34,486 nt of DNA from positions 1-34,486 of the IMG/VR virus record IMGVR_UViG_3300003779_000001; one strand, given 5' to 3'. Position numbers and translations under genes: made by a program. The notes beneath the pieces are model-generated. The model did not search any database, was not told the origin of the DNA, and saw nothing but the letters and a program-made list of their open reading frames with translations. Source of the DNA: a virus. This document shows, one piece after another, positions 1 to 34,486 of the stretch (positions are counted from its first letter, which is position 1; each line of letters starts with the position of its first letter).

Positions 1-99
1 GACTGTTAGCCAAACTCGTTTTCCCGAAGTCGATCCAGGTACTCGTTCACGGGGTAGCCCTCGGTAAACTCACTGTCCTCGATCTTGTCGAGGTCCACC
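1..99. repeat. Terminal direct repeat copy 1 (identical to 34388..34486); circular-assembly overlap
   Basis: Bases 1..99 (gactgttagccaaactcg...cgaggtccacc) recur base-for-base at 34388..34486. The window is a 34,387-bp circle opened inside the 3' end of a minus-strand gene. Confidence 0.95.
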
Positions 100-446: not shown

Positions 447-544
447 GATATATCTCCAACTTTTTGATTCCATCAATACGATTCAAAGATCGGGTACGTT
501 AGGTATAATAACGCCCTTTTTGACCAGGCATTTCGTCGCCATAG

Positions 545-2209
545 TCAGCAATCTATCCGCCTCAAGACGACGGAGACAGGCAAGTCCAAGTCCAGGAGAT
601 CGCCGCCCTGCATCAGAAAAACGCTCTCCTGCCTAAAACAAAGCTTCTTGCCGTATTCCGCATTCCGCTGCTTTTCGATCGTCACCATAATTCCTCCTTC
701 CGCAGCTTCATCTTCCTGCTCTTCATCCGGCTCCTGGCTCACCATGCTCAGCACGCTGTCTGCCGCTCCCAACAAGGCGTTCGAGCCGCGCATCCCCCTA
801 GCAACATCCTTGCCGGAATGATGAATTAAAAGAACGGCACAACCCAACGCATTGCGTAGCAAGTCAACGCTTCTGACAACCGCACCAACGTCTTGCGCGC
901 TATTCTCGTCGCCGCTCATCGAGCGTGCCAGCGTGTCGAAAACGATGAGCGACAAGGACGACATTTCTTCCACAGCATTCACCGCCGCAACGAAATTCTC
1001 CATATCTTCTAGCGAAGAAAGATCGACGCCTGCCAATGAAAAATAAGCTCGTGAAGTCAGCGGCAGACCAGCATCCCAATGCCAGGTCGTTATGCGTCCC
1101 TTCAACCCGCCAAGTCCTTCGTTCATAACGTATAAAATATCAGACGCACCGGAAACCCCATGGCCCTGCCAGCTTACGCCATTGGCAATGCTCAGGACCA
1201 TGTCCAGCCCGAGAAAGGTCTTGCCGACCCCCGGCGGGCCATACAAGACCGCCAAGCCATGCCGCTCAATGATATTCGAGATAAGCCATTCCTGAGGCGG
1301 AAGAGCCATAAGCTCGCCGGCGGAAAGAAACCGCTTGAAACGAGTATCGGGACCTGGCGCCGATCGATGCCGGACGTATTCGTCGGATACGTGATCCCCC
1401 AGCGACGACCCGTCCAGTCCTTTTGGGAGCAGACGGTCGGGTTTACCACCAGGTCCCGATACCAATGGTTTAGCCGCATCAGCAATATCAAGTAAAGCGG
1501 TTCTCGTGCCACCATCGTCTATCCAGTCGGATGCGTCATACCCCCGCTGGCATTCGCCCGTCGAGGCCTCCGCAAGCGAGACCACCGTGATCGTTCGAGC
1601 AACGCCGTCCAGCTGCCGACACACGTCCTCGGCATGCTTCATGCCGGCTTCATCGTGATCAGGAAGAATAATCACATTGCGGTCGGCAAACCACTTGTTC
1701 AGCCGCGCCGACCAGTTGCTTGCACCACCATCGCTAGTTGTCGCCAAGACGCCTAAGCGGTTCAGCCGATCAGCGTCTTTCTCTCCCTCGACAATGAATA
1801 TCGGCTCGTCACTACGCTCGATGAGCTCGGGAAGCCGGTAGGGAACACGGGCGCGATTGCCGCGGCCCCACACCGTCTCTGCCCCGACCCGGTGCCGCAT
1901 TCTGAAGGTCTTGGGAATATACCGGACAACCTCATAGGCAACGGCACCGCTCTCGTCATGATATGGATAAACCGCTTCCGGTTCCATGCGGTCCGGCATC
2001 GAAACCCCTCCCTGGAAACGCCCGATGAAATCCTTGATGCCGCCGCCAACAGCGTTTTCGTGGTCGTACCATATGCCTCGGTCGAGATTAACGATCAGCG
2101 AACCATGATTGCCCCACCGCAACTCCGTCTTGCTCGAAAGTCGGCGGTTCGCTGGTCCCAGAATATCTGTGGCGATGCGCTCCAATTCTCCCCTAGAAGG
2201 GAATTTCAT
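545..2209 (-). CDS. Bifunctional DNA primase / replicative helicase (Toprim + RecA/DnaB-like P-loop ATPase)
   Basis: 574-aa ORF. The likely start is the ATG at 2209 (MKFPSRGELERIA). Toprim motifs are IFIVEGEKDADRL and ILPDHDEAG. The C-terminal ATPase has Walker A VLYGPPGVGKTF, Walker B-like LSLIVFDTL, and LLIHHSGKD. The architecture matches P4-alpha/RepA-type primase-helicases. Confidence 0.85.
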   Translation of the reverse strand: MKFPSRGELERIATDILGPANRRLSSKTELRWGNHGSLIVNLDRGIWYDHENAVGGGIKDFIGRFQGGVSMPDRMEPEAVYPYHDESGAVAYEVVRYIPKTFRMRHRVGAETVWGRGNRARVPYRLPELIERSDEPIFIVEGEKDADRLNRLGVLATTSDGGASNWSARLNKWFADRNVIILPDHDEAGMKHAEDVCRQLDGVARTITVVSLAEASTGECQRGYDASDWIDDGGTRTALLDIADAAKPLVSGPGGKPDRLLPKGLDGSSLGDHVSDEYVRHRSAPGPDTRFKRFLSAGELMALPPQEWLISNIIERHGLAVLYGPPGVGKTFLGLDMVLSIANGVSWQGHGVSGASDILYVMNEGLGGLKGRITTWHWDAGLPLTSRAYFSLAGVDLSSLEDMENFVAAVNAVEEMSSLSLIVFDTLARSMSGDENSAQDVGAVVRSVDLLRNALGCAVLLIHHSGKDVARGMRGSNALLGAADSVLSMVSQEPDEEQEDEAAEGGIMVTIEKQRNAEYGKKLCFRQESVFLMQGGDLLDLDLPVSVVLRRIDC

Positions 2210-2777
2210 CGTCCAGGCTTTGCGCACCCACCGTACCCACTGCGGGCGGCGCATGAACAGGCGGCGCAACGTTACCCGAGCTCTTGCCGGATTCCGGAAG
2301 CGTGGCGCGATCGACCGTCTTCACGAAAGCGAGCTGAGGAACGTTCAGCATCGTATTCCCGGCGGCGACATTCTCGACGCCGGTTATTTGAATGACCGGC
2401 AAGACGCCAGACTGGGCCGTCTTACTCACCACGGTCGGCCAAACTCGTGAAATGGCAAGCCGCGACGCCTTGCCCGTCGTTGACCAGGTGAGCCAGCCGT
2501 GCGCATTGTCATAGAGATCAATCGTAAAACCCCGACGCCAAGTCATTCCAGGAGTGTCTTCTGGTTTGGCGTCTTGACGCCCAACGACCGTATCCCATTG
2601 CCATTCCGTCCGGTTGCTACTTTGCGAGAAACATCCCCACCCCGTGCGCAAGGTGACAGGGTCGAGAACGAAGTGAACCAAGGTCACGACTTCCTTGTTC
2701 ACCACCCACTGATTGGCTACCGATCGGTAGTTAATAAAAGTCCTGTTTTCGTCTAAAATTTGAAGAGGGTCGTTCAT
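2193..2777 (-). CDS. SSB-like early protein with the bacterial SSB C-terminal tip motif (DDEIPF)
   Basis: 194 aa, with RBS GGAGAA 6 nt before the ATG at 2777. A Trp-rich N-terminal domain (WQWD, WRRGF, GWLTW) is followed by a Pro/Ala/Gly linker (SGNVAPPVHAPPAVGTVGAQ) and the terminal SLDDEIPF. It overlaps the primase-helicase start by 17 nt. The fold is not recognisably a canonical OB SSB. Confidence 0.6.
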   Translation of the reverse strand: MNDPLQILDENRTFINYRSVANQWVVNKEVVTLVHFVLDPVTLRTGWGCFSQSSNRTEWQWDTVVGRQDAKPEDTPGMTWRRGFTIDLYDNAHGWLTWSTTGKASRLAISRVWPTVVSKTAQSGVLPVIQITGVENVAAGNTMLNVPQLAFVKTVDRATLPESGKSSGNVAPPVHAPPAVGTVGAQSLDDEIPF

Positions 2778-2800
2778 TGTCGCTTCTCCATTTCAGGTTC

Positions 2801-2836
2801 CAGCCCCCCTTCTCTCCTAAGAGAGAAGGGGGGCTG
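2801..2836 (-). promoter_or_regulatory. Perfect 16-bp-stem hairpin between the TM-peptide ORF and the SSB-like gene
   Basis: cagccccccttctctc / ctaa / gagagaaggggggctg. No U-tract follows on either strand, so it is more likely an RNA processing/stability element or a protein site than an intrinsic terminator. Confidence 0.5.
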
Positions 2837-2841
2837 ATCAA

Positions 2842-2949
2842 CTAGATCATCATGATGATCAGCCAAGCTACGAAAGCGCCGACCAGTATGGTTATCTTGC
2901 TTGGTCCGGCTCGAACAGTTTCAGCCATCTGATTCTTTTCGTCTGTCAT
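2842..2949 (-). CDS. Small membrane peptide (35 aa), not in the ORF track
   Basis: Hand translation gives MTDEKNQMAETVRAGPSKITILVGAFVAWLIIMMI*, with one hydrophobic helix. AAGGAAA lies upstream of the ATG at 2949. It fills an otherwise empty gap in a tightly packed operon. Confidence 0.4.
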   Translation of the reverse strand: MTDEKNQMAETVRAGPSKITILVGAFVAWLIIMMI

Positions 2950-3056
2950 TCGATTTTCCTTTCTTGACCACAGAGCATTTTAAGCCTCGTACAGAGGCGA
3001 GGCCGTCTTCGGGTAGCCAGGTACGAAAACATCAGAGATACGCATCCTGGACCATC

Positions 3057-3392
3057 CTAGGGCCTCCTGGAGGGCTTTAAACTGCAAGGCTTCCAAAACG
3101 ATAATTCTTCGGGATTTTCCCGGTAATAAGAACATGCTGGCGTTTTGGGCGGCAGCTGATTGATAAAAGACTTCGTATAAGCCGTATATTTTGCGCAGTG
3201 ACCTGGCTTAAGCTGATTGCCGCGCCTTCGGTTCGTCGCCGAATAGTAGCCGTTATTATTGAAAAATTGACAATTAAAGCAGAAAGTATATGCCGGACCC
3301 GTGCCGGCCAGGTACATCATGCCGGAAGGTGATTTTTTGAACGCTCGCTTCAGTTCCGAATCATAAAGGTTCGTAAGATTTTCCCGTTTCAT
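3057..3392 (-). CDS. Cys-rich small protein (111 aa), possible zinc-binding
   Basis: ORF track gives 3057..3539. The ATG at 3392 (MKRENLTNLYD...) has GGGAGA 7 nt upstream. Cysteine pattern is CFNC...HC...C...C. The gene is AT-richer than its neighbours. Confidence 0.6.
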   Translation of the reverse strand: MKRENLTNLYDSELKRAFKKSPSGMMYLAGTGPAYTFCFNCQFFNNNGYYSATNRRRGNQLKPGHCAKYTAYTKSFINQLPPKTPACSYYRENPEELSFWKPCSLKPSRRP

Positions 3393-3522
3393 GTGCAATT
3401 CTCCCGAAACTTCCGAAATCACAAAAATTTTCTGCCACGGGGAGCAGACACTGCTAGCCCCCCCGCCCCCCCCTAAACACTTCTCGCGCGCGGCGTTGTG
3501 TGTAAAAAGGAGCCTCTTGTAA

Positions 3523-3542
3523 CGCGTGACCATGGTCACGCG
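3523..3542. promoter_or_regulatory. 20-bp perfect palindrome just downstream of the wHTH gene stop
   Basis: cgcgtgac catg gtcacgcg, forming an 8-bp stem with a 4-nt loop in RNA. It lies in the 3393..3549 intergenic spacer. Confidence 0.45.
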
Positions 3543-3549
3543 CTAGAAG

Positions 3550-4242
3550 TCACAGCAGCCCCGCAGCTTTGGCGACAACCCCCAGAGAAGCCGTGGAAGC
3601 TCCAGTTTCCGCAGCTTTCAGCACTGCGTCCCGTACATCCTCGGGCGTGCATCCGCGCTCTGCGAGCTGCTGTGCGTCCTTTATCTGCTGCGACGCAATG
3701 CGGAGCGAGCCAGTCGCTCGCTCCACAGCGTGAGTGAATGTGTGTGCGAGGATATTGGCTGACGCCTCGATTTCCCTGAATCCCTTCGTTCTCGCGTCCT
3801 CTTCCGGCACGACGCCTGTTTCTGCGGTATCATCGGCGATCTTCGGTCGCGGAGCGTAGAATTGCTCTCGCGACGGCAGTTCGGATTGCGGCCCGTCGAA
3901 CAGGACCTGATACCTGTTAGTACGCCAACGGGACTTTTGCTGTACCGGCATTGGATACTTACGCGGCTGCAACTTGCGGACATAGCCGGCGTTAATGAGG
4001 CGAGTCATATGGCGTGAGACGGTACGAGGACCGCGAGAGATATGCCGACCGAGAGTAATCTGGCTCGGCCAGCAAATTCCGTAGGCGTTGGTATGCAAAC
4101 ACAATGCGGCCAGCACACGTAATGTCGTGATATGCAGCTGGTCGTCCTGAACGGCGCGAGCGGGCAGGACGGAGTAACGACGGATTTTAGGTTTCGATTT
4201 TGGCACGGGCGAGATCGTAGTGGAGCGCGTTTGACCAGTCAA
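3550..4242 (-). CDS. Winged-helix/HTH DNA-binding protein (regulator or origin-binding initiator), first gene of the leftward operon
   Basis: The ORF opens with TTG at 4242. There is no in-frame ATG before residue 79, and GTG at 4206 is an alternative start. The HTH-like core is LRVLAALCLHTNAYGICWPSQITLGRHISRGPRTVSRHMTRLINAGYVRK. Confidence 0.75.
   Translation of the reverse strand: MTGQTRSTTISPVPKSKPKIRRYSVLPARAVQDDQLHITTLRVLAALCLHTNAYGICWPSQITLGRHISRGPRTVSRHMTRLINAGYVRKLQPRKYPMPVQQKSRWRTNRYQVLFDGPQSELPSREQFYAPRPKIADDTAETGVVPEEDARTKGFREIEASANILAHTFTHAVERATGSLRIASQQIKDAQQLAERGCTPEDVRDAVLKAAETGASTASLGVVAKAAGLL
4214..4242 (-). promoter_or_regulatory. Candidate leftward promoter TTGACT-17-TACGAT (would make the wHTH mRNA leaderless from GTG 4206)
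   Basis: On the minus strand: TTGACT (4242..4237), a 17-nt spacer, TACGAT (4219..4214), then 7 nt to GTG at 4206. It competes with the TTG-4242 start call. Confidence 0.3.
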
Positions 4243-4277
4243 CTATCTAACTAACGATACCGTCCGGTATTAGAACG

Positions 4278-4325
4278 CAGCACCTTATTTCCCCCCCCTT
4301 TAAGGGGGGGGGAAATAAGGTGCTG
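4278..4325. repeat. 21-bp-arm inverted repeat with C8/G9 homopolymer core in the divergent early control region
   Basis: cagcaccttatttcccccccc (4278..4298) / tttaag / ggggggggaaataaggtgctg (4305..4325). It lies between the two divergent early operons, 18 nt upstream of the rightward -35. Confidence 0.6.
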
Positions 4326-4342: not shown

Positions 4343-4371
4343 TTGACACTGCCTGATACATGCGGTATAAA
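4343..4371 (+). promoter_or_regulatory. Near-consensus sigma70 promoter for the rightward early operon
   Basis: TTGACA (4343..4348), exactly 17 nt of spacer, TATAAA (4366..4371). It is followed by RBS GGGAGA and the ATG at 4401. Confidence 0.7.
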
Positions 4372-4400
4372 GAATATTAATTACATAAAAGGGAGATAAA

Positions 4401-5024
4401 ATGACCGAATTAAGCACATTCACACGCTATCTGACGGCTGACGAATATCATGCAGCCGTCGGAGACGACGACTATCTTGTTGCAGCCGGCCACAACGTAG
4501 TCGTAACTGTCTCGGCTGACACTGCCTGGCATAGCTATCGTCTTGACGGTTCGCTCGACGGCTCGATTTTCGTCATTGGCGACGGCGCTGGCGATGCGAT
4601 CCGCAGTGGCGACGGCGCTGGCGACGCTTGGCGCAAGGGCCCTGGCGCTGGCGATGCGATCCGCAGTGACGCTGGCGCTGGCGATGCGATCCGCAGTGGC
4701 GTTGGCGCTGGCAATGCGCTTCGCCACGACAGTGGCACTGGCAATGCGATCCGCAGTAGCGACGGCGCTGGCGACGCTTGGCGCAAGGGCCCCGGCGCTG
4801 GCGATGCGATCCGCAGTGGCGCTGGCGATGGTGATGCGATCCGCAGTGACGCTGGCGCTGGCGATGCGATCCGCAGTGACGACGGCGTTGGCAATGCGAT
4901 CCGCAGTGGCGCTGGCGCTGGCAATGCGCTTCGCCACGACAGTGGCACTGGCAATGCGCTCCGCAGTGACGCTGGCGATGGTGATGCGATCCGCAGTGGC
5001 GCTGGCAAAGGCCGCGCGATTTAG
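4401..5024 (+). CDS. Decapeptide-repeat protein (61-aa N-domain + ~14.6 x G-[AD]-G-[DN]-A-[ILW]-R-x-x-x), function unknown
   Basis: RBS aaGGGAGAtaaaATG. Only this frame has a start/RBS context; the other five open frames are repeat artefacts. By my count it has 30 acidic and 20 basic residues. Confidence 0.8.
   Translation: MTELSTFTRYLTADEYHAAVGDDDYLVAAGHNVVVTVSADTAWHSYRLDGSLDGSIFVIGDGAGDAIRSGDGAGDAWRKGPGAGDAIRSDAGAGDAIRSGVGAGNALRHDSGTGNAIRSSDGAGDAWRKGPGAGDAIRSGAGDGDAIRSDAGAGDAIRSDDGVGNAIRSGAGAGNALRHDSGTGNALRSDAGDGDAIRSGAGKGRAI
4578..5021 (+). repeat. Tandem 30-bp coding repeat (~15 units) with higher-order structure
   Basis: The unit is about gacggcgctggcgatgcgatccgcagtggc. Units 2-6 and 7-13 share the same start (GAGDAWRKGP) and end (GAGNALRHDS, GTGNA[IL]RS..), which indicates a higher-order duplication. 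Confidence 0.9.
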
Positions 5025-5058
5025 GAACGGAATTGGAGACCAAAGATAGGAAACGACC

Positions 5059-5427
5059 ATGTCGACATCACTCGGGGAACGAATTCGAGAACAGCGCCGG
5101 AAGAAGGGGCTTACACTCGAACAACTTGCCGCCGCAAGCGGGTCTAGCAAGAGCTATATGTGGGAGATTGAGAACAAAGACGTCGCGCGCCCCTCGGCGG
5201 AGAAGCTGCAAGCCATAGCCCAGGCGCTTAATACGACAATGGATTATTTGTTGGCCGCCGAAGGTGTTACAGAGGCTGGTGCCTCCGATCGAGCGTTCTT
5301 TTACAAGTACCGAGAAATGCCAGAAAAGACCAAACGGAAGCTCCAACGCATACTTGAGCTGCTTGATGATGACGAAGAGGAAGGGAAAATGATCGGAACT
5401 ATAACTTATGGGCTTGACGCCGGTTGA
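5059..5427 (+). CDS. XRE-family HTH transcriptional regulator (Cro/CI/Aca-like)
   Basis: LGERIREQRRKKGLTLEQLAAASGSSKSYMWEIENKDVARPSAEKLQAIAQALNTTMDYL is a canonical HTH_3/XRE domain. The tail is acidic (DDDEEEG). Confidence 0.85.
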   Translation: MSTSLGERIREQRRKKGLTLEQLAAASGSSKSYMWEIENKDVARPSAEKLQAIAQALNTTMDYLLAAEGVTEAGASDRAFFYKYREMPEKTKRKLQRILELLDDDEEEGKMIGTITYGLDAG

Positions 5428-5494
5428 GAAGGCACCGGACAACAAAACCTACCGCTTATAAGCCCATAACTTATGATCCCGAAAGAGACCAAGC

Positions 5495-5623
5495 ATGAAT
5501 CTGATGAGTATCTTCCATCGATTTCCTGATCAAGAAGCCTGTATCGAATACATGGAACGTGTACGTTGGAGCGACGAGATGCATTGTCCGCACTGCAGCT
5601 CCACCCTTGATTTCGGATTTTGA
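5495..5623 (+). pseudogene. Remnant of an IS1595-type transposase zinc-ribbon N-terminus (42 codons)
   Basis: Hand translation gives MNLMSIFHRFPDQEACIEYMERVRWSDEMHCPHCSSTLDFGF*. It matches the ..F.rFPDeeAC..Yl...RW......CP.C.. start of Zn_Tnp_IS1595 domains, but stops after the first Cys pair. It ends 4 nt before the TerS ATG. Confidence 0.5.
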
Positions 5624-5627
5624 TTCT

Positions 5628-6035
5628 ATGACAGCCAAACCGAAGCCAGCCCCGCGACCTTCCGTGCGTAAACTACGGAGAGGGCTGGTCACTGGAACGG
5701 ACAGAGAACGCGAGCGGGTCAAGGACGAGTTACACCAGCTGGCAACGTCGGACATTGCGGACGTTATGGCATGGGACGACGGCAAGCTGGTGCTGAAAGA
5801 CTTTGATCTGATCCCCGCGGGTGCGCGTCGATGCATCAAAAAGATTCGGGTGGTTTCAAATAATCACGGCATGCAATTGGAGGTCGAACTACACGATAAA
5901 CTGTCGGCGCTCCGCATTCTCGCTAGACATTACGGACTTCTTGAAACAGGCTTGATGCATTCGTCAAAGCCTAGCGTTGTTGGCATCAATCTTCGCGGAC
6001 CCGTGCTTATTGACGAAGAAGACGGAAGGAATTGA
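5628..6035 (+). CDS. terS: Terminase small subunit (Terminase_2-like core, no recognisable N-terminal HTH)
   Basis: ATG at 5628 (MTAKPKPAPRP). The segment IKKIRVVSNNHGMQLEVELHDKLSALRILARHYGLLE matches the DK.kALe.L.kHlGl core of P27-type small terminases. It abuts TerL through a TGATG junction. Confidence 0.75.
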   Translation: MTAKPKPAPRPSVRKLRRGLVTGTDRERERVKDELHQLATSDIADVMAWDDGKLVLKDFDLIPAGARRCIKKIRVVSNNHGMQLEVELHDKLSALRILARHYGLLETGLMHSSKPSVVGINLRGPVLIDEEDGRN

Positions 6036-7582
6036 TGGCGAGACGGCGTGGCGCGACAGGCAAGGCAAAAGAGGCGAAAGAAACCTCTACCATTTTTGAC
6101 GGCTTGGACTTCGACTTTAGTGGCAGTCCGACAATATGGCGATTTTTGCACGACAATTCGTTTTTCCGAGGGATCATGGGTCCGGTCGGATCGGGGAAGA
6201 GCTTCGCTTGCGCAGCGGAGGTATTCTTGCGTGCCGTCAAGCAAACGCCTACCGCATCCGATAATATCCGCTATACGCGATTTGCCGTCATTCGTAACAG
6301 CTATCCCGAATTGCGAACGACGACAATTAAGACGTGGAATAGTATTTTCCCGGAAAATATCTTCGGGCCCATGCGATGGTCTCCACCATTGAGCCATCAT
6401 ATTCGGCTCCCACCTCGTGGCAATGCTGCGGGAATAGACTGCGAAGTCATCTTCCTGGCCTTAGATCAGCCCAAGGACGTTCGGAAACTATTGTCTCTCG
6501 AACTGACAGGGGCCTGGATCAATGAGGCGCGGGAGATTCCCTTGGGAGTCGTCCAGGGATTGACCCATCGTGTCGGTCGCTATCCGTCCAAGATTCATGG
6601 CGGTCCTGATTGGAGAGGGATTTGGGCAGATACGAATCCGATGGGAAATGATTCATGGTGGTACCGCCTGGCGGAAAAGGAGCCCATCAAGGGCCGGTAC
6701 AAATGGACCTTCTTCAAGCAGCCTGGCGCGATGATTCGGACCGACCGCGCCGATGAGGGAATTCCCGCCGCCGGCAAGTATTGGAGACCAGGGGAAAACG
6801 TTGAGAATATACAGAACCTGCCCATCGGCTACTACGAGCAGCAGCTGGGCGGCAAATCGCTCGATTGGATCGAATGTTACGTTGGCGGCAATTATGTCTA
6901 TGTGCAGGAGGGCCTTCCCATCTGGCCAGAGTATGATGACACGATCATGGCCACTGATAATCTGATACCCGACAAGGACCTTCCAATTCAAGTCGGTCTC
7001 GACTTCGGCTTGACACCCGCCGCCGTCATCGGGCAACGTTTTCCCACCGGGGTTTGGCATGTTCTGAACGAAATCGTCACGGAAGACATGGGGCTAGAAC
7101 GGTTCGGTCTCATGCTTCTGCATGTGCTGAATACCCAGTATCCCGGTTATGAAATCAAATGTTGGGGTGACCCGTCCGGCACCAAACGAGACGAGATATT
7201 CGAGGTTACGTCGTTCGACCACCTGAGAAGTATTGGGCTGACGGCATACCCCACCGCTTCGAACGCCTTTCGTGTCCGCCGTGAGGCAGGAGCTCTTCCC
7301 ATGACACGTCTGTTCAGGGGGCGGCCCAGCCTTTTGGTTGCCGATACATGTAAAAAGCTGCGGCGTGCGCTAGCGGGTGGATACCATTTCAAAGGTGCGG
7401 CGACTGATGCGTTGGATGGTCGCCGCAGGGACCTACCATACAAGAATGACAGTTCACATGTGGGCGATGCCTTTGGATATTTGATGCTGGGCGGCGGGGA
7501 GCACAGGGTCTTGACGCGCCCACCCGGCATGCAGCAGCATGAGCCCCTGATCATAGCCGATCATGATTTCCGGGTGATCTGA
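6035..7582 (+). CDS. terL: Terminase large subunit
   Basis: The track starts at TTG 6032. I prefer ATG 6035, which has GGAAGGA upstream. Walker A is GIMGPVGSGKSF, followed by IRNSYPELRTTTIKTW, Walker B-like TGAWINEA, and nuclease-half motifs VGLDFGLTPAA and CWGDPSG. Confidence 0.9.
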   Translation: MARRRGATGKAKEAKETSTIFDGLDFDFSGSPTIWRFLHDNSFFRGIMGPVGSGKSFACAAEVFLRAVKQTPTASDNIRYTRFAVIRNSYPELRTTTIKTWNSIFPENIFGPMRWSPPLSHHIRLPPRGNAAGIDCEVIFLALDQPKDVRKLLSLELTGAWINEAREIPLGVVQGLTHRVGRYPSKIHGGPDWRGIWADTNPMGNDSWWYRLAEKEPIKGRYKWTFFKQPGAMIRTDRADEGIPAAGKYWRPGENVENIQNLPIGYYEQQLGGKSLDWIECYVGGNYVYVQEGLPIWPEYDDTIMATDNLIPDKDLPIQVGLDFGLTPAAVIGQRFPTGVWHVLNEIVTEDMGLERFGLMLLHVLNTQYPGYEIKCWGDPSGTKRDEIFEVTSFDHLRSIGLTAYPTASNAFRVRREAGALPMTRLFRGRPSLLVADTCKKLRRALAGGYHFKGAATDALDGRRRDLPYKNDSSHVGDAFGYLMLGGGEHRVLTRPPGMQQHEPLIIADHDFRVI

Positions 7583-8083
7583 ATGCTGCTGGAAAAAATA
7601 CAAATCATTACGCCGGCGGAAGTCACGGCTTGGTTCGGGCTCGATGCCGTCCCATTCCAAGAAAAACACTTACGGAACATCCAGTTAACGCCAAACGATC
7701 GTGAGTCATTGGAGAGAATGCCATCACATTATCAAGCCATCTTGCAGCAAAGCCATGATCAGGTGGCCTACGCGCTGCTTGACGCCGATGATGTGGTTGC
7801 CATATTCGGCCTTTATTCCATGTGGCCGGGCGTCGCGGAGCTTTGGGCTATCCCTTCGATAATCTCACCAGGCAGGGGCATCCGTGCCGTTCGTGGAGGC
7901 CGAAGATTTTGCGAGGCCGCTGCGGTCAAACTGGAATTGTGGCGGCTGCAAGCGGTTGTGAACTCTCGCTGGCTCGCGAATTCCAGATTTGTGAAAATGC
8001 TTGGCTTCGAGAAGGAAGCCACGCTATTCTGTTTTGGACCTGAACGTGAAAATTTCCATGTCTATGCGAGGTTTTTCGAATGA
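7583..8083 (+). CDS. GNAT-like small acetyltransferase-fold protein
   Basis: LWRLQAVVNSRWLANSRFVKMLGFEKEATL resembles the GNAT RL.a.V...N..S.rf.ekLGF..EG signature. From memory it resembles small phage DUF2833-type proteins. It has a TGAATG junction with terL and an ATGA overlap with the next gene. Confidence 0.55.
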   Translation: MLLEKIQIITPAEVTAWFGLDAVPFQEKHLRNIQLTPNDRESLERMPSHYQAILQQSHDQVAYALLDADDVVAIFGLYSMWPGVAELWAIPSIISPGRGIRAVRGGRRFCEAAAVKLELWRLQAVVNSRWLANSRFVKMLGFEKEATLFCFGPERENFHVYARFFE

Positions 8084-8610
8084 CAATACCATCCAAATGG
8101 GTGAGCTTTGGCCAGGCGATCCGCAAGGCCCGCAAGGCCAAGGGGCTTACTCAGAAAGGGCTTGCCGCCCTTGTTATAAAGCAAGATCGTGCGGGCGATA
8201 AGTGGCCGCCTTTGCCACGCACGTCAATTTCGGTGCCATACCTGAGTGACATCGAACGTGGCTACCGTCGTCCTACGGCAGACCATATCATCCGCCAGTT
8301 CGCGCAAGCGCTTGATGAAGACGAAAGATATCTGTTCGCGTTGGCTGGCAAAATCCCTGACGGCGTTCGTAAACTCGCCGAATATCAAGATCGAGACATA
8401 GTCATCAAAGCATTTAGTAATTTCATGGAGACCCTTTGGAGGTTAAAAACAGCAGACTTGGAATCAATACGCTCTACTCCTACTTTTCGTGCTCGCGACA
8501 TCGATGAAGAGTTGAGAGTGATAAAGGGAGAAAAGGAGCCGCAAAGAAGCTATTCCAATGAGGAGGGGGCTATCCTGAAAATGACGTTGATTCAAGAGCG
8601 CAACAACTGA
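8080..8610 (+). CDS. XRE-type HTH protein with an unknown C-terminal domain, embedded in the packaging/portal block
   Basis: FGQAIRKARKAKGLTQKGLAAL....ISVPYLSDIERGYRRPTADHIIRQFAQAL is an XRE HTH with an inserted loop. The C-terminal ~80 aa are AT-rich and unassigned. Confidence 0.75.
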   Translation: MTIPSKWVSFGQAIRKARKAKGLTQKGLAALVIKQDRAGDKWPPLPRTSISVPYLSDIERGYRRPTADHIIRQFAQALDEDERYLFALAGKIPDGVRKLAEYQDRDIVIKAFSNFMETLWRLKTADLESIRSTPTFRARDIDEELRVIKGEKEPQRSYSNEEGAILKMTLIQERNN

Positions 8611-8622
8611 GAGAGGTTTCCA

Positions 8623-8898
8623 ATGACTAGAGTCGTTAAAACACTCTTTGGTGGCTTTTCCGAATCGCCATCGACACCAGCCGCGGCCCAGGCTGCGCAA
8701 TCGGAAAGCCTGGCCAAGATCGAGCTGGAGCAAAAGCGGCTTGATGAAGAGCAGAAACGTCTCGACGAAGACCTAAAAAAAAGGCAAGCGAAAGTTTCAA
8801 AGCCAAAGAAAAGCATCCCTGGGTATAGTCTTCTGTTGTCGCCTTATCGTGAAGACGCGGCACGAGGAATTAGGGGCAGTAAGAGCGTGAGGCCATAA
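8623..8898 (+). CDS. Small charged coiled-coil protein (91 aa)
   Basis: RBS GAGAGG. Contains KIELEQKRLDEEQKRLDEDLKKRQAK. It overlaps the portal start through TAATG. Confidence 0.6.
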   Translation: MTRVVKTLFGGFSESPSTPAAAQAAQSESLAKIELEQKRLDEEQKRLDEDLKKRQAKVSKPKKSIPGYSLLLSPYREDAARGIRGSKSVRP

Positions 8899-10424
8899 TG
8901 CCTTCTAGTGAAGAGGTGCTGCGCCGCTCGGAGCGTGCGTTTTCCCGCAAGGCACAGTGGCGCAGGCTTTATGAAGACTGCTACACCTACGCTCTTCCAC
9001 AGCGGAATCTCTATTATGGAGGCTATGAATTTGGCGCTGATGGCCAGAGCAAGACCGCGCGGGTTTTCGATTCGACGGCAATCAATTCGACTCAGCGGTT
9101 TGCCAATCGCATTCAATCTGCTCTCTTCCCTCCATACCGACGTTGGTGCCATTTGCGTCCTGGCCATGACGTGCCTGGCGAAAGCCACGACGAGGTAGCC
9201 GCGTCATTAGACTTGATTACCGAGCAAATGTTCACACTTCTACGCCAGACGAATTTTGATCTGGCGATATCGGAATTTCTTCTCGACCTTTGTGTCGGCA
9301 CGGCGGTTATGCTTGTGATGCCAGGCGATGAGGACACACCGATTCGATTCCAGGCGGTTCCGCAATACCTTGTCAGTATCGAGGAGGGTCCGCATGGAAC
9401 CGTGGATAACGTCTACCGCAAGGTGCGCGTGCGGGCGGATACGATAGTACGGCAATGGCCGGATGCCGTGCTGCCCGACAGGATCCAGCATCAAATAGAG
9501 GACAAGCCGGACAGCGACTTGATGTTGCTGGAAGCGACATTGTGGTCCCAGGACGATGGGGCCTATACCTATCATGTGATCTACTCCGAAGACCGCACTG
9601 AATTGGTGCACCGACTGATGCCTGTCAGCCCATGGGTTGTCGCACGCTATACGAAAGTTGCCGGCGAAGTCTACGGAAGGGGGCCGTTAGTGTCCGCTTT
9701 GCCTGACATCAAGACCTTGAACAAAGTCAAGGAACTGCTTCTAAAAAATGCGTCGCTTGCCGTGACGGGTGTTTACACAGCAGCCGACGACGGGGTTTTG
9801 AACCCGAACAATATCTCGATTGTCCCCGGAGCTATCATCCCTGTGGCCCGCAACGGCGGGCCACAGGGCGAAAGCCTGCGACCGTTGCGGGCCGCTGGCG
9901 ACTTCAACATTACCCAGCTGATCATCAATGATCTGATCGTCAGCGTGAAAAAAACGCTACTGGACGATACGTTGCCGCCAGAGACACAATCAGCACGTTC
10001 GGCGACGGAGATCGCCGAACGCATGAAGGAGCTCTCGCAGAATCTCGGGTCGGCTTATGGTCGTCTTATCATCGAGTGTATGATGCCGATCGTCGATCGC
10101 ATCCTTCATGCGCTGAGCGAACGCGATCATATCCATTTGCCCTTGCGCGCGGATGGCAAGGTCGTCAAGGTCGTCCCGGTTTCGCCTCTGGCACGGGCTC
10201 AAGATATGGAAGACCTGGACAGCGTTCTGCAATTCCTGAGTCTGGCCGAACGTGGCGGCGTCGCTGCGCAAGTCGCGGTCAATCAAGACGAGGCGATTGA
10301 TTATATTGCTGACAAGCTGTCCGTTCCGGACAGCGTGCTTAATTCTCGGGAACAGCGTGAAGCCATCCTGGCGGAGATGCAGGCTATCGCCGCCGCTCAG
10401 CAGCAGCAACAGCCTGAAGGGTGA
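8898..10424 (+). CDS. Portal (podovirus head-to-tail connector type)
   Basis: 508 aa. The N-terminus (RRSERAFSRKAQWRRLYEDCYTYALPQRN..FDSTAINSTQRFANRIQSALFPP) resembles T7 gp8-type connectors. It sits downstream of the terminase genes. Confidence 0.85.
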   Translation: MPSSEEVLRRSERAFSRKAQWRRLYEDCYTYALPQRNLYYGGYEFGADGQSKTARVFDSTAINSTQRFANRIQSALFPPYRRWCHLRPGHDVPGESHDEVAASLDLITEQMFTLLRQTNFDLAISEFLLDLCVGTAVMLVMPGDEDTPIRFQAVPQYLVSIEEGPHGTVDNVYRKVRVRADTIVRQWPDAVLPDRIQHQIEDKPDSDLMLLEATLWSQDDGAYTYHVIYSEDRTELVHRLMPVSPWVVARYTKVAGEVYGRGPLVSALPDIKTLNKVKELLLKNASLAVTGVYTAADDGVLNPNNISIVPGAIIPVARNGGPQGESLRPLRAAGDFNITQLIINDLIVSVKKTLLDDTLPPETQSARSATEIAERMKELSQNLGSAYGRLIIECMMPIVDRILHALSERDHIHLPLRADGKVVKVVPVSPLARAQDMEDLDSVLQFLSLAERGGVAAQVAVNQDEAIDYIADKLSVPDSVLNSREQREAILAEMQAIAAAQQQQQPEG

Positions 10425-13017: not shown

Positions 13018-13108
13018 GCTGATAATTTTGATAGTCCGGTTAAAATTTTCTATTGCTCCACCAAGCATGTTCATGCTAGTCTCAAATAAACCAATTAAAG
13101 AGGCGATC

Positions 13109-13798
13109 ATGGAAAAATTTGAAGGATACATCTCCTATCTTCGTGTTTCGACGCAACGTCAAGGTCAATCCGGCCTCGGGCTAGAGGCTCAACGCAAGAC
13201 AATCTGCGATTTTCTTGGCAACACAAAGCCGCTTGCGGAATTTGTTGAGGTGGAGTCGGGAAGAAAGGACGAAGATGAACGACCACAACTTGAAGCAGCT
13301 ATCATTCAATGTCAGAAATTGAATGCGATATTGGTCGTCGCAAAGCTTGATAGATTATCTCGGAGCTTGGCCTTCATCACGAGGCTAAAGAAGGCAGGCA
13401 TTCGATTTGTTGCCTGCGATATGCCAGACCTACAGGATCCGGCAACATCAGGTCTCTTTCTAAATTTCATGGGCGCGATTGCCGAGTTTGAAAGCAAGCA
13501 AAACTCCCAACGTGTCAAAGCGGCTCTAGCGGCCAAGAAAGCTCGTGGCGAAAAGAAAAGACTGCCTGAAAACTATAAAGAGCTTGCGGCGAAAGCCAAT
13601 GAAGCCTACCGAAAAAAAAACCACGAGTGGACGAAGTCCGTATGGGTGATCATCCAGGAACTGGAAGCCTATGGCTGTACGACGCTGAAAAAAATAGCCG
13701 AAGGCTTGGAGGCGCGCGGCGTCAAAACGTTCCGTGGGCATAGCAAATGGTCCGAATCGAGCGTGATGTCGGTTCGCAACCGAATGAGGGGCACCTGA
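13109..13798 (+). CDS. Small serine recombinase (resolvase/invertase catalytic domain + short recombinase-type C-terminal HTH region)
   Basis: ATG at 13109 with AAGAGG upstream. YISYLRVSTQRQGQSGLGLEAQR contains the catalytic Ser. Also LVVAKLDRLSRS and AEFES. The C-terminus TLKKIAEGLEARGVKTFRGHSKWSESSVMSVRNR resembles the recombinase domain of large serine recombinases. Confidence 0.85.
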   Translation: MEKFEGYISYLRVSTQRQGQSGLGLEAQRKTICDFLGNTKPLAEFVEVESGRKDEDERPQLEAAIIQCQKLNAILVVAKLDRLSRSLAFITRLKKAGIRFVACDMPDLQDPATSGLFLNFMGAIAEFESKQNSQRVKAALAAKKARGEKKRLPENYKELAAKANEAYRKKNHEWTKSVWVIIQELEAYGCTTLKKIAEGLEARGVKTFRGHSKWSESSVMSVRNRMRGT

Positions 13799-13805
13799 CC
13801 GACGC

Positions 13806-14075
13806 CTAGACGGTCATCGATGCCCGGAACCAAGTCAGGATAAGGCCGACACTAAGGGAGACGATGGCACCGATGATCAGCCAGATGAAACGCTCGAAAC
13901 GCCTTTCGATGGCTTCCCGTCGAATCAGGTTGTTTTCCACCAGCCGGAGACGATTGGAGATATCTCCAATCGTGTCCGTGTGGTTCTCGATCGCATCCGC
14001 AATATGGTTGAGCTTTTCCTCGATGCGGGCGACCGCGACAATGATGGAATCGAAATCGGCGTGCGGTTCTGCCAT
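13806..14075 (-). CDS. Tail-anchored coiled-coil membrane protein (XhlA-like architecture)
   Basis: 89 aa. The N-terminal heptad-like region is IEEKLNHIADAIENHTDTIGDISNRLRLVENNL, and there is a single C-terminal TM, FIWLIIGAIVSLSVGLILTWF. The functional call rests on architecture only. Confidence 0.55.
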   Translation of the reverse strand: MAEPHADFDSIIVAVARIEEKLNHIADAIENHTDTIGDISNRLRLVENNLIRREAIERRFERFIWLIIGAIVSLSVGLILTWFRASMTV

Positions 14076-14460: not shown

Positions 14461-14507
14461 ATCAAAATAAACGACTTAACGCCATGCGTTAAGTCGTTTA
14501 TTTTGAT
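14461..14507. repeat. Perfect palindrome, 22-bp arms with a 3-nt centre
   Basis: atcaaaataaacgacttaacgc / cat / gcgttaagtcgtttattttgat. It lies between the late-operon terminator and the HigA-like gene start. Confidence 0.9.
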
Positions 14508-34387: not shown

Positions 34388-34486
34388 GACTGTTAGCCAA
34401 ACTCGTTTTCCCGAAGTCGATCCAGGTACTCGTTCACGGGGTAGCCCTCGGTAAACTCACTGTCCTCGATCTTGTCGAGGTCCACC
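34388..34486. repeat. Terminal direct repeat copy 2 (identical to 1..99)
   Basis: See copy 1. It duplicates the 3' end of the 6..446(-) gene. Confidence 0.95.

What the first reader, a model, noticed from the sequence alone, without database searches (positions are those of the whole stretch)
4343..5427. Strongest promoter in the genome drives a decapeptide-repeat solenoid-like protein followed by an XRE regulator (candidate host-takeover/anti-defence operon)
A textbook TTGACA-17-TATAAA promoter and a GGGAGA RBS precede a 207-aa protein. It has a 61-aa N-domain and then ~14.6 copies of G-[AD]-G-[DN]-A-[ILW]-R-x-x-x. By my count it has 30 acidic and 20 basic residues, with one invariant Arg and one or more Asp per unit.

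The repeat does not fit RTX nonapeptide repeats (GGxGxDxUx) or pentapeptide repeats (A[DN]Lxx), but it has the same beta-roll/beta-helix flavour. Pentapeptide-repeat and other acidic solenoids are established DNA mimics (Qnr/MfpA, and by analogy Ocr/ArdA).

The arrangement of a strong promoter, an unknown protein, and then a small HTH repressor is the architecture established for acr-aca anti-CRISPR operons. I cannot assign any known family, which makes this my best candidate for an undescribed early effector.
Basis: partly seen in the sequence, partly recalled or inferred. Interest (0 to 1): 0.8.

Follow-up and report, generated by a model that had tools for sequence, protein, structure and literature searches.

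The report
New phage decapeptide-repeat solenoid protein family
A small phage gene behind a near-consensus promoter encodes a soluble beta-solenoid built from a ten-residue repeat that no database has named. The regulator after it is not a dedicated partner but a broken-off CapH-type immune/prophage repressor that has lost its protease and its cleavage-site arginine.

Summary
Gene 4401..5024 encodes 207 aa: a 59-aa N-terminal cap plus 14.8 decapeptide repeats. It sits behind the only 11/12 sigma-70 match in this circular 34.4-kb podophage genome and ahead of an XRE gene.

The protein is real. Gly5 and Ala7 codons change only synonymously, and AlphaFold2 gives one short strand per repeat (pLDDT 85.6; 94-98 for the cap and first repeats).

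It belongs to a large unnamed family: 282 cluster representatives. Consensus: G-x-G-x-G-[DN]-A-hydrophobic-R-x. There is no Pfam, PHROG, NCBIfam, PADLOC, PDB or Foldseek match. Members lie in phage accessory regions, often as tandem paralogue arrays.

Two parts of the interpretation fail:
- DNA mimicry: the repeats are nearly neutral (21 acidic, 18 basic).
- acr-aca architecture: six homologous loci have no HTH neighbour.

The XRE is CapH-like (PADLOC 7e-29). All 44 homologous loci pair it with a CapP protease. Here capP is cut after four codons beside an IS1595 relic, and the cleavage-site Arg is Tyr.

Best reading: an accessory binding scaffold with a variable surface, function untested. It is a new family within a known fold class.

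The parts
4257..4270 (.). Perfect 14-bp palindrome ATACCGTCCGGTAT in the divergent intergenic region; candidate operator. The half-site CGGTAT recurs at 4363-4368, overlapping the -10 element.
   Evidence: Single occurrence in the genome against 0.01 expected. Half-site list. No binding protein assigned.
4278..4325 (.). 22-bp-stem palindrome/hairpin with C8/G9 tracts, ending 18 nt upstream of the -35 element.
   Evidence: Longest inverted repeat in the genome. Folds at -47 kcal/mol, z = -6.4. It lies between divergent genes, so it is not an obvious terminator.
4343..4371 (+). Sigma-70-type promoter: TTGACA, 17 nt, TATAAA.
   Evidence: Only 11/12 match in the genome. Chance expectation 0.2 per genome. 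Sequence.
4391..4395 (+). Ribosome-binding site GGGAG, 5 nt before the ATG.
4401..4577 (+). N-terminal cap domain (residues 1-59; strand-helix-three strands) ending in the lead-in LDGSIFVIG.
   Evidence: Conserved across 20 aligned family members: consensus YTAxEF...EADGxDV.I.V...Y.L.G...GSITV.G. AlphaFold2 pLDDT 97-98 with the 47-sequence alignment.
4578..5024 (+). 14 full units plus one partial unit of the decapeptide x-x-G-x-G-[DN]-A-[ILW]-R-x, then the stop codon. There is no C-terminal cap.
   Evidence: Only synonymous changes at G5 and A7. One short strand per 10 residues, alternating 4- and 3-residue strands.
5059..5427 (+). CapH-like XRE repressor (122 aa). Tyr82 replaces the P1' Arg of the CapP cleavage site, and a 15-aa C-terminal read-through extension is present.
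   Evidence: PADLOC capH 7.1e-29, full profile length. PDB 7t5u_A, 2.8e-17. FFYKY here against F[FY]RKY in all 27 distinct homologues.
5389..5400 (+). Remnant of the capP/immA start (ATG ATC GGA ACT = MIGT), now fused in frame to the end of the XRE gene.
   Evidence: The homologue L028 CapP begins MIGSRRKSP. In homologous loci capP starts at this position, overlapping the capH stop.
5393..5482 (.). 23-nt inverted repeat (83% complementary, 44-nt spacer). Each arm holds the palindrome ATAACTTAT. It marks the breakpoint that removed capP.
5495..5623 (+). 42-aa fragment of an IS1595-type transposase zinc ribbon.
   Evidence: Pfam Zn_ribbon_IS1595, 5.2e-8.
5628..6035 (+). Small terminase subunit, followed by the large subunit at 6032..7582. 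Probably co-transcribed from the 4343 promoter.
   Evidence: Pfam Terminase_2. Gene call in the identical ENA contig. No terminator-like site on the + strand between 5024 and 6035.
3550..4206 (-). Divergently transcribed replication-initiator gene (HTH_36; O-like).
   Evidence: Start at 4206 according to the ENA gene call. Weak promoter-like site at 4242-4214 on the - strand.

Best explanation
SHOWN
- Gene 4401..5024 is a genuine protein-coding gene of a complete, circular podophage genome. That genome is distantly related to Methylophilales phage MEP301.
- The product is soluble: it has no signal peptide or membrane segment.
- It has a small N-terminal cap followed by a beta-solenoid of ten-residue repeats, with no C-terminal cap.
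- It belongs to a large, unnamed family of repeat proteins known almost only from metagenomes.
- The odd repeat positions (G1, G3, G5, A7, R9) are conserved. Positions 2, 4 and 10 are highly variable and polar; position 6 is mostly D or N; position 8 is mostly hydrophobic.
- Family genes lie in accessory or early regions of phage contigs, often as tandem paralogues with very different repeat numbers.
- Here the gene is an add-on. It sits with a broken CapH-CapP regulatory module and an IS1595 relic at the head of the rightward operon. The related phages sampled have neither gene.

INFERRED
- Two repeats make one coil, as in an RTX beta-roll. Position 8 points inward.
- The invariant Arg, probably with the position-6 Asp/Asn, ties the glycine-rich turns together in place of the calcium ions of RTX rolls. 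This would let the roll fold in the cytoplasm.
- The variable outward-facing positions form a long, flat binding surface.
- The protein therefore most likely acts stoichiometrically, binding and blocking or sequestering a host or rival-phage macromolecule (a conflict or takeover protein).
- It is made in quantity from the near-consensus host-type promoter.
- It is not a DNA mimic, because its repeat surface carries no net charge.
For: Real gene
- RBS and ATG. The same 207-aa gene is called in the identical ENA contig.
- Among the 14 units, G5 and A7 codons differ only synonymously (24 synonymous pairs each, none non-synonymous). All amino-acid changes fall at positions 1, 2, 4, 6, 8 and 10.

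Family
- An exhaustive phmmer search finds 282 cluster representatives at E<=1e-3 and 129 at E<=1e-10. About 125 of the top 150 show the same period of 10.
- Logo from 1169 units.
- The N-cap is conserved in 20 aligned members.

Fold
- AlphaFold2 gives pLDDT 85.6 and pTM 0.84, with one strand per repeat and 4- and 3-residue strands alternating with period 20.
- With 47 sequences, pLDDT is 94-98 for the cap and first seven repeats.

Soluble
- Only 2-3 of 149 members have a membrane-like segment.

Phage accessory context and paralogue arrays
- L003 (DNA polymerase/PDDEXK region), L004-L006, L010 (a two-gene island between terminase and capsid genes), L012 (three copies beside RusA/Erf/YqaJ-like ORFs) and L001/L002.
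- Arrays with 15 of 21 (L009) and 8 of 9 (L007) consecutive genes carrying 6-29 units.

Add-on status
- Relatives with 66-71% TerL identity have repinit followed by terL within about 550 bp. They have no tblastn match to the repeat protein or the XRE.

Charge
-.
Against: - No experiment or informative homologue bears on function. 'Binding scaffold in a conflict' is inferred from architecture, variability, paralogue expansion and genomic position, and is generic.
- The tools return no model coordinates. The coil geometry, the inward or outward assignment of residues and the Arg-for-calcium idea could not be checked.
- Foldseek finds no RTX roll, and nothing at all with E<0.5.
- The promoter match alone is only marginally unusual genome-wide, and expression timing is unknown.
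- With no terminator before terS, the gene could simply be the first gene of a late or packaging operon.
- Several loci with large arrays (L007, L008, L009) could not be shown to be viral.
Confidence: 0.5

Rival explanations
1. This is an acr-aca-type anti-defence operon. The solenoid is an acidic DNA mimic that blocks restriction, CRISPR or gyrase-type targets, and the XRE is its dedicated Aca-like autorepressor acting on the 4343 promoter.
For: - A strong promoter, a small unknown gene and an HTH gene 34 nt downstream in one transcription unit.
- Solenoid fold.
- Whole-protein pI 4.76.
- A unique palindrome and a half-site overlapping the -10 element could be operators.
Against: - The repeat surface is nearly neutral (21 acidic, 18 basic), and the family mean is 1.35 acidic and 1.44 basic per unit.
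- There is an invariant Arg in every unit.
- No pentapeptide or other DNA-mimic family match.
- No HTH neighbour in six homologous loci.
- The XRE is a CapH-type repressor whose conserved partner is a protease, not an upstream effector.
- The palindrome GTTCG-N6-CGAAC, conserved upstream of 39 of 44 homologues, is absent from the whole genome.
Confidence: 0.08
2. The counter-defence activity lies in the XRE, not the solenoid. The phage carries a captured CapH repressor made uncleavable by the Arg-to-Tyr change at P1' and by loss of capP. Expressed strongly on infection, it would hold host or prophage CapH/CapP-controlled immune operons (CBASS and others) repressed despite the ssDNA/DNA-damage signal. 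The repeat protein would be unrelated cargo.
For: - PADLOC capH 7.1e-29 over the full profile. CapH N-terminal domain structure 7t5u, 2.8e-17, with S32 and R44 conserved.
- FFYKY replaces the F[FY]RKY that is invariant in 27 distinct homologues.
- CapH is cleaved between F82 and R83, and the R83A mutant is uncleavable (bioRxiv 10.1101/2022.04.27.489752; PMC13228613).
- The Arg codon needed two base changes (CGC to TAC).
- capP is cut after four codons.
- No family-type operator occurs in the phage genome.
- The gene lies behind the best promoter in the genome.
Against: - A simpler reading is decay after an IS-mediated deletion.
- There is only one sequence, so selection cannot be tested.
- The five closest homologues also lack the GTTCG-N6-CGAAC operator, so the target specificity of this branch is unknown.
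- The host is unknown, as is whether it has CapH-regulated operons.
- The 15-aa read-through tail might impair the dimerisation domain.
Confidence: 0.12
3. The solenoid is a self-associating structural or scaffolding protein with no role in conflict. It would be an uncapped beta-solenoid that polymerises end to end or coats something during replication or packaging, expressed as the first gene of the packaging operon.
For: - No C-terminal cap: the protein ends inside a repeat.
- No terminator before terS/terL.
- In L010 two copies lie between the terminase and capsid genes.
Against: - Absent from related phages with the same packaging module and from MEP301, so it is dispensable.
- The surface positions are hypervariable and the repeat number ranges from 3 to 29, which is unusual for a conserved assembly part.
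- No PHROG structural family match.
Confidence: 0.1
4. The locus is a recombination scar. The repeat gene, the truncated CapH-CapP module and the IS relic are hitch-hiking DNA with no current function, and the repeat array is simply an expanding minisatellite.
For: - IS1595 fragment, truncated capP and a read-through XRE.
- Gene order differs from relatives at exactly this junction.
- Block duplications within the array: units 2-6 recur as units 7, 8, 10, 12 and 13.
Against: - Intact ORF with a good RBS and promoter.
- The synonymous-only pattern at the conserved codons.
- The N-cap and repeat consensus are conserved over hundreds of divergent homologues.
Confidence: 0.1
5. The 30-bp tandem array acts at the DNA level, for example as iterons for the adjacent replication initiator, and the ORF is incidental.
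For: - 14 direct 30-bp repeats lie about 370 bp from the divergent replication-initiator gene.
- ORFs are open in all six frames across the array.
Against: - The frame-specific pattern of synonymous and non-synonymous change.
- Protein-level homologues are found in unrelated contexts that have no adjacent initiator gene.
- The array is 69% GC and lies inside a gene that has a conserved N-domain.
Confidence: 0.02

Closest known systems
RTX nonapeptide beta-roll (GGxGxDxUx; Pfam HemolysinCabind PF00353)
   Same: - A glycine-rich turn followed by a 3-4-residue strand with a mostly hydrophobic middle residue.
- Asp/Asn at repeat position 6.
- The predicted strands alternate 4 and 3 residues long with period 20, which suggests two repeats per coil (inference).
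   Different: - Period of 10, not 9.
- Glycines at positions 1, 3 and 5 instead of 1, 2 and 4.
- Invariant Ala7 and Arg9.
- Cytoplasmic, with no type I secretion signal (established knowledge for RTX proteins).
- No PF00353 match in the window protein or in 118 relatives.
- No RTX structure among the Foldseek hits.
Pentapeptide-repeat proteins (Qnr, MfpA, AlbG, McbG; A[DN]LXX)
   Same: Both are beta-solenoids made of very short repeats, soluble and cytoplasmic. Pentapeptide-repeat proteins act by binding and protecting or inhibiting a target (gyrase), which is the kind of action proposed here.
   Different: - The repeat period and consensus do not fit.
- No Pfam Pentapeptide match in 118 members.
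- The only hint is an NCBIfam penta_MxKDx score of 17.7 bits against a cut-off of 41.
- No net negative charge on the repeats.
acr-aca anti-CRISPR operons
   Same: A strong promoter, a small gene of unknown family, then an HTH gene in the same transcription unit.
   Different: - The HTH is CapH-type with a truncated protease partner.
- No operator has been demonstrated.
- The association is not conserved in the repeat family.
- The transcription unit appears to continue into terS and terL.
CapH-CapP / ImmR-ImmA / DdrO-IrrE repressor-protease switches
   Same: - The XRE matches the whole capH profile and the CapH N-terminal domain structure.
- It keeps S32, R44 and the C-terminal core residues F, Y, L, L at the expected spacing.
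- Homologues at 58-79% identity are always followed by capP.
   Different: - Here capP is reduced to four codons.
- The P1' Arg is Tyr.
- The stop codon is lost, adding 15 residues.
- The gene lies downstream of another gene instead of heading its own operon.
- The conserved GTTCG-N6-CGAAC palindrome is missing.
Moron-type accessory genes of tailed phages
   Same: An insertion with its own promoter that is absent from close relatives, placed between functional modules. In L010 the family forms a two-gene island on the opposite strand inside the structural module.
   Different: No terminator closes the unit here, and whether the phage is temperate is unclear.

Membership tests
RTX / HemolysinCabind beta-roll | Tandem nonapeptides matching GGxGxDxUx | tested here: not met
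   The period is 30 nt (10 aa) with no indels. The consensus is G-x-G-x-G-[DN]-A-U-R-x.
RTX / HemolysinCabind beta-roll | Match to Pfam PF00353 | tested here: not met
   No Pfam hit at E<=0.1 for the window protein. PF00353 is absent from the families hit by 118 relatives.
RTX / HemolysinCabind beta-roll | Calcium-dependent folding, with Ca2+ bound between turns | not testable with these tools
   Needs model coordinates or biophysics. The invariant Arg9 suggests a calcium-independent variant (inference).
Pentapeptide-repeat proteins | Period-5 repeats A[DN]LXX; Pfam Pentapeptide models | tested here: not met
   Period of 10. No Pentapeptide family among the hits of 118 members. Only a sub-threshold NCBIfam penta_MxKDx score.
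DNA-mimic proteins (Ocr, ArdA, Qnr-like) | Surface with a strong net negative charge imitating the DNA backbone | tested here: not met
   The repeat region has 21 acidic and 18 basic residues. The family mean is 1.35 acidic and 1.44 basic per unit. Charge layout in three dimensions was not examined.
acr-aca operon | HTH gene directly downstream of the effector gene in one operon | tested here: met
   34-nt gap, same strand, no intervening promoter-like or terminator-like site.
acr-aca operon | The HTH protein binds inverted repeats in the operon promoter and represses it | tested here: inconclusive
   Candidate palindromes at 4257-4270 and 4278-4325 and a half-site over the -10 element. The operator conserved in the XRE's own family is absent. 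No binding data.
acr-aca operon | The same HTH family recurs next to varied effectors (guilt by association) | tested here: not met
   In the 44 homologue loci the XRE heads its own operon and is followed by capP. Six repeat-family loci have no HTH neighbour.
CapH (CapH-CapP / ImmR-ImmA class) | XRE HTH domain plus C-terminal two-helix dimerisation domain; profile match | tested here: met
   PADLOC capH 7.1e-29, residues 1-107 against profile positions 3-103 of 103. PDB 7t5u_A, 2.8e-17.
CapH (CapH-CapP / ImmR-ImmA class) | Adjacent CapP/ImmA metallopeptidase gene | tested here: not met
   Only four codons (MIGT) remain at 5389-5400. Homologous loci all have it: Peptidase_M78 and PADLOC capP 5.1e-59.
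CapH (CapH-CapP / ImmR-ImmA class) | Phe-Arg cleavage site in the first C-terminal helix | tested here: not met
   FFYKY in the window against F[FY]RKY in all 27 distinct homologues. The site is defined in bioRxiv 10.1101/2022.04.27.489752 and PMC13228613.
New decapeptide-repeat solenoid family (this work) | N-cap ending in G-S-I-x-V, then at least 3 units of G-x-G-x-G-x-A-x-R-x | tested here: met

The most novel reading that the evidence does not exclude
The two genes together form a new kind of phage counter-defence cassette with two parts. (1) A captured CapH repressor has been made uncleavable (Arg-to-Tyr at P1', protease partner deleted). It keeps host CapH/CapP-controlled immune operons switched off during infection. 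(2) The other gene is the founding member of a calcium-independent 'arginine-ladder' beta-roll family, whose hypervariable faces neutralise host proteins. That would explain the family's tandem amplification in other phages.
Probability: 0.1. Interest if true: 0.85.

Novelty: new variant of a known kind. Interest (0 to 1): 0.6.

Why it matters
- **A new repeat class.** If the structure prediction holds, this is a widespread beta-solenoid repeat class with no entry in Pfam, PHROGs, NCBIfam, PADLOC or the PDB. It has hundreds of 50%-identity clusters and arrays of 15 or more paralogues.
- **A possible design principle.** An invariant arginine may do the job of calcium in RTX rolls. That would be a new way to build a beta-roll that folds in the cytoplasm.
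- **A family worth screening.** Its place in phage accessory regions, its variable surface and its copy-number expansions are typical of conflict proteins. That makes it a sensible target for anti-defence or host-takeover screens.
- **The orphan CapH.** A CapH repressor with a mutated cleavage site suggests phages could silence DNA-damage-induced immune operons with a dominant repressor. This is directly testable.

Tried and rejected
**Homology searches that found nothing**
- Sequence: Pfam, PHROGs, NCBIfam and PADLOC gave no family for the repeat protein. PDB phmmer gave nothing below E=0.16.
- Structure: Foldseek with two models against PDB, and one against BFVD, gave only generic beta-helices at E>0.5.
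- tblastn of the window protein against GenBank phages and PLSDB plasmids, and of a less repetitive relative (P0032) against phages, found nothing. BLAST's low-complexity filter may contribute.
- Megablast of 6 kb around the locus against phages found nothing.
- Literature searches for 'decapeptide repeat' with phage or solenoid, and for six repeat strings, gave no relevant paper.

**Searches limited by the tools**
- The word-indexed protein search found only two relatives. The exhaustive search was needed.
With the 3-sequence alignment it found one genome locus.

**Leads that did not hold up**
- Extra domains of long family members: only sporadic Hexapep, SEC-C and TrAA12 hits.
- An invertible segment linking this junction to the serine recombinase: no matching long-range inverted repeat.
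- The repeat array as iterons: rejected on codon evidence.
- Repeat-number variation in close relatives: the only other copy of this genome is identical.
- The XRE-family operator GTTCG-N6-CGAAC at the 4343 promoter: absent. The closest homologues lack it too, so this says little.
- The divergent two-gene cargo beside capH-capP in homologous loci has no Pfam or PADLOC match.
Full report
**The genome.** The window ends in a 99-bp direct terminal overlap, so it is a circularly assembled genome of about 34.4 kb. It is identical, over the 8.1 kb compared, to ENA contig ERZ27247877:k141_531470. The genes are those of a short-tailed phage:
- On the minus strand: a primase-helicase (545..2269) and an O-like replication initiator (3550..4206/4242).
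- On the plus strand: terS, terL (6032..7582) and portal (8898..10424).
- On the minus strand: capsid and tail genes.

The closest cultured relative by TerL is Methylophilales phage MEP301, at 61.5% identity. There is no nucleotide-level match in GenBank phages.

**The observation.**
- TTGACA-17-TATAAA at 4343-4371.
- GGGAG five bases before ATG 4401.
- A 207-aa ORF with a 59-aa N-terminal part and 14 full plus one partial ten-residue units.
- 30 acidic and 20 basic residues.

The promoter is the only 11/12 consensus match on either strand. One such match per genome is not rare by chance: 0.2 are expected, and 18% of Markov shuffles have at least one. Its credibility comes from where it sits, in a 42%-GC divergent intergenic region at the right distance from an RBS.

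The downstream gene 5059..5427 is an XRE-type HTH.

Small corrections:
- Three units have no Asp.
- The invariant positions are G3, G5, A7 and R9.
- Most of the net negative charge is in the N-domain. The repeat part has 21 acidic and 18 basic residues.

**A real protein, not a DNA repeat.** All six frames are open across the GC-rich array, so the reading frame needs support.
- Among the 14 units, the Gly5 and Ala7 codons vary only synonymously (GGC/GGT and GCG/GCT; 24 synonymous pairs each, none non-synonymous). Every amino-acid change falls at positions 1, 2, 4, 6, 8 or 10.
- The N-terminal domain is conserved in many relatives.
- An independent gene call gives the same 207-aa product.

This rules out an iteron-only reading, despite the replication-initiator gene next door.

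**The family.** The word-indexed search found two relatives. The exhaustive search of 1.84 billion cluster representatives found 282 at E<=1e-3 and 129 at E<=1e-10. About 125 of the best 150 show the same strict ten-residue period.

From 1169 units, anchored on G3, G5, A7 and R9, the consensus is:

| Position | Residues |
|---|---|
| 1 | G (81%) |
| 2, 4, 10 | highly variable, polar |
| 3, 5 | G |
| 6 | D 39%, N 20%, S 11%, H 9% |
| 7 | A |
| 8 | V, I, L, Y, W or F in about two-thirds of units; R 9% |
| 9 | R |

- The mean is 1.35 acidic and 1.44 basic residues per unit.
- Many members share the window's N-cap: YTAxEF...EADGxDV.I.V...Y.L.G...GSITV.G.
- A second cap type (LPxGVxVxTxLPYxV...DSxEDGDL) heads the members in the large arrays.
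- One actinophage-like IMG/VR contig has a twelve-residue variant, G-x-G-x-G-[DYN]-A-x-S-x-R-x.
- Only 2-3 of 149 members have a membrane-like segment.
- No Pfam, PHROG, NCBIfam or PADLOC family covers the repeat. All database members come from metagenomes and none is named.
- I found no paper on it.

**Structure.**
- With three sequences, AlphaFold2 gives pLDDT 85.6 and pTM 0.84. The N-terminal part is strand-helix-three strands. After it there is one short strand per repeat, with 4- and 3-residue strands alternating at a period of 20.
- With 47 sequences, the cap and first seven repeats reach pLDDT 94-98. The C-terminal half, where the short homologues give no coverage, falls to about 55.
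- Foldseek against the PDB (both models) and BFVD (first model) returns only generic right-handed and left-handed beta-helices at E>0.5 and TM<0.4. No RTX rolls and no pentapeptide proteins appear.

From the alternating strand lengths and the sequence pattern I infer a two-sheet roll with two repeats per coil and position 8 inside. I also infer that the invariant Arg9, probably with Asp/Asn6, stabilises the glycine turns. The tools return no coordinates, so this is inference, not a result.

**Genomic context of relatives.** Members lie in phage contigs among early, DNA-metabolism or accessory genes:
- L003, with family A DNA polymerase and PDDEXK genes.
- L004-L006.
- L010, a two-gene island on the opposite strand between the terminase and capsid genes.
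- L012, three tandem copies beside RusA-, Erf- and YqaJ-like ORFs (as read from the translations).
- L001/L002, three or four copies.

Tandem amplification is common. Counts are 5 copies in L004, 8 of 9 consecutive genes in L007, and 15 of 21 consecutive genes in L009, with 6-29 units per gene. None of ten neighbouring genes in six loci has an HTH or any other Pfam domain.

In IMG/VR relatives of this phage (TerL 66-71% identical), repinit runs co-directionally into terL within about 550 bp. Neither the repeat gene nor the XRE is present. MEP301 has other small genes at that position. The gene is therefore an accessory insertion.

**The XRE is a CapH remnant.**
- The XRE matches the PADLOC capH profile end to end (7.1e-29). 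It also matches the crystal structure of the CapH N-terminal domain (7t5u_A, 2.8e-17).
- Forty-four IMG/VR loci encode homologues at 58-79% identity. In those loci the gene is followed by a gene of roughly 200-310 aa that overlaps its stop. The three downstream products tested are Peptidase_M78, and one is also PADLOC capP at 5.1e-59.
- In the homologous loci examined, the pair faces a divergent two-gene operon (about 395 and 320 aa) that has no Pfam or PADLOC match in those tested.
- In the window the capP start survives as four codons (MIGT, 5389-5400), fused in frame to the XRE. It breaks off at a 23-nt inverted repeat (5393-5482). A 42-aa IS1595 zinc-ribbon fragment follows (5495..5623).

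CapH is cleaved by CapP between Phe82 and Arg83, and the R83A mutant is uncleavable (bioRxiv 10.1101/2022.04.27.489752; PMC13228613). All 27 distinct homologues keep F[FY]RKY at this site. The window alone has FFYKY, a two-base change of the Arg codon.

A palindrome, GTTCG-N6-CGAAC, lies about 95 nt upstream of capH in 39 of 44 loci. It is absent from the whole window. The five closest homologues also lack it, so this is not decisive.

The XRE is therefore not a dedicated Aca-like partner of the solenoid gene. It is the surviving half of a repressor-protease switch, either decaying or put to a new use.

**The control region.**
- Between the divergent genes lie a unique 14-bp palindrome (4257-4270; 0.01 expected) and the longest hairpin in the genome (4278-4325, -47 kcal/mol). 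The hairpin ends 18 nt before the -35 element.
- E. coli CapH binds a conserved 22-bp region just upstream of a -35 element (bioRxiv 10.1101/2022.04.27.489752). The position is suggestive, but nothing ties the XRE to these sequences.
- No terminator-like site lies between the repeat gene and terS/terL. The promoter probably also feeds the packaging genes, so 'early' expression is not established.

**Conclusion.** Shown:
- A real, soluble, confidently predicted beta-solenoid protein.
- It belongs to a large repeat family that none of the databases searched describes.
- Here it is carried as an accessory gene behind the best host-type promoter of the phage.

Inferred, at about even odds: it works as a binding scaffold whose variable faces engage a host or rival-phage target. 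The specific DNA-mimic and acr-aca readings are not supported.

The most novel reading still open is a two-part counter-defence cassette made of an uncleavable CapH and the solenoid.

Noticed in passing
window 5059-5427 (residue 82) and 5389-5400: The CapH-like repressor has Tyr where all 27 distinct homologues have the P1' Arg of the CapP cleavage site. Its capP partner is reduced to four codons, fused in frame to the repressor. This could be a phage-borne uncleavable repressor of DNA-damage-induced immune operons, or simple decay.
   Followed up: partly
window 5393-5482 and 5495-5623: A 23-nt inverted repeat whose arms each hold the palindrome ATAACTTAT, followed by a 42-aa IS1595 transposase zinc-ribbon fragment. 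This is a relic of an insertion/deletion event at the junction before terS.
   Followed up: partly
window 4278-4325: The longest inverted repeat in the genome (22-bp stem with C8/G9 tracts, -47 kcal/mol). It lies between divergent genes, 18 nt upstream of the -35 element. It is not an obvious terminator. An operator, an origin element or a packaging signal are all possible.
   Followed up: partly
window 4257-4270 and 4363-4368: A unique perfect palindrome ATACCGTCCGGTAT (0.01 expected). The half-site CGGTAT recurs over the -10 element of the 4343 promoter.
   Followed up: partly
window 4344-4355 and 4517-4528: An exact 12-nt direct repeat, TGACACTGCCTG. One copy covers the -35 element and the other lies inside the N-domain coding sequence (0.08 expected with one mismatch allowed). 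Unexplained.
   Followed up: no
L009 1-20498 (ENA ERZ23495076 scaffold_196, 142 kb, 69% GC); L007 (63% GC): Very large tandem arrays of the repeat family. Fifteen of 21 consecutive genes in L009 and 8 of 9 in L007 carry 6-29 units each, headed by a second type of N-cap. The nature of these contigs (giant phage or bacterium) is unknown.
   Followed up: partly
L001 5117-7149 and L002 668-3068 (IMGVR_UViG_3300031965_000037): Three or four tandem paralogues with a twelve-residue variant of the repeat (G-x-G-x-G-[DYN]-A-x-S-x-R-x) and the N-terminal motif HYTHDEWIAGAV.
   Followed up: no
L016-L056, about 460-2870 (minus strand), e.g. L020 491-2606: A conserved divergent two-gene operon (about 395 and 320 aa) shares a promoter region with capH-capP in the prophage-like IMG/VR contigs examined. 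The members tested have no Pfam or PADLOC match. It is a candidate uncharacterised CapH/CapP-regulated system. A GTTCG-N6-CGAAC palindrome lies in the shared promoter region in 39 of 44 loci.
   Followed up: partly
L008 11741-20577 (594-kb circular contig): A family member lies a few genes from a PLD-SNF2 helicase and an MmeI/Eco57I-type methyltransferase. This looks like a defence-island neighbourhood.
   Followed up: no
window 8080-8610: A second XRE-type HTH gene (176 aa) sits between the terL-adjacent gene and the portal gene, an unusual place for a regulator.
   Followed up: no
window 13028-13798, 13939-13984, 14461-14507: A small serine recombinase (resolvase/invertase type) lies next to the tail-fibre genes, with two strong palindromes nearby, one a perfect 22-nt-arm hairpin. 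Tail-fibre inversion or integration is possible. No long-range inverted repeat was found.
   Followed up: partly
window 545-4242 compared with L060-L076: In related phages the order is primase-helicase, replication initiator, terL, all on one strand. Here the replication genes are on the opposite strand and in the reverse order relative to the packaging genes. The finding's locus therefore sits at a module rearrangement junction.
   Followed up: partly
window 1-99 and 34388-34486: A 99-bp exact terminal direct repeat, which indicates a circularly assembled complete genome.
   Followed up: yes
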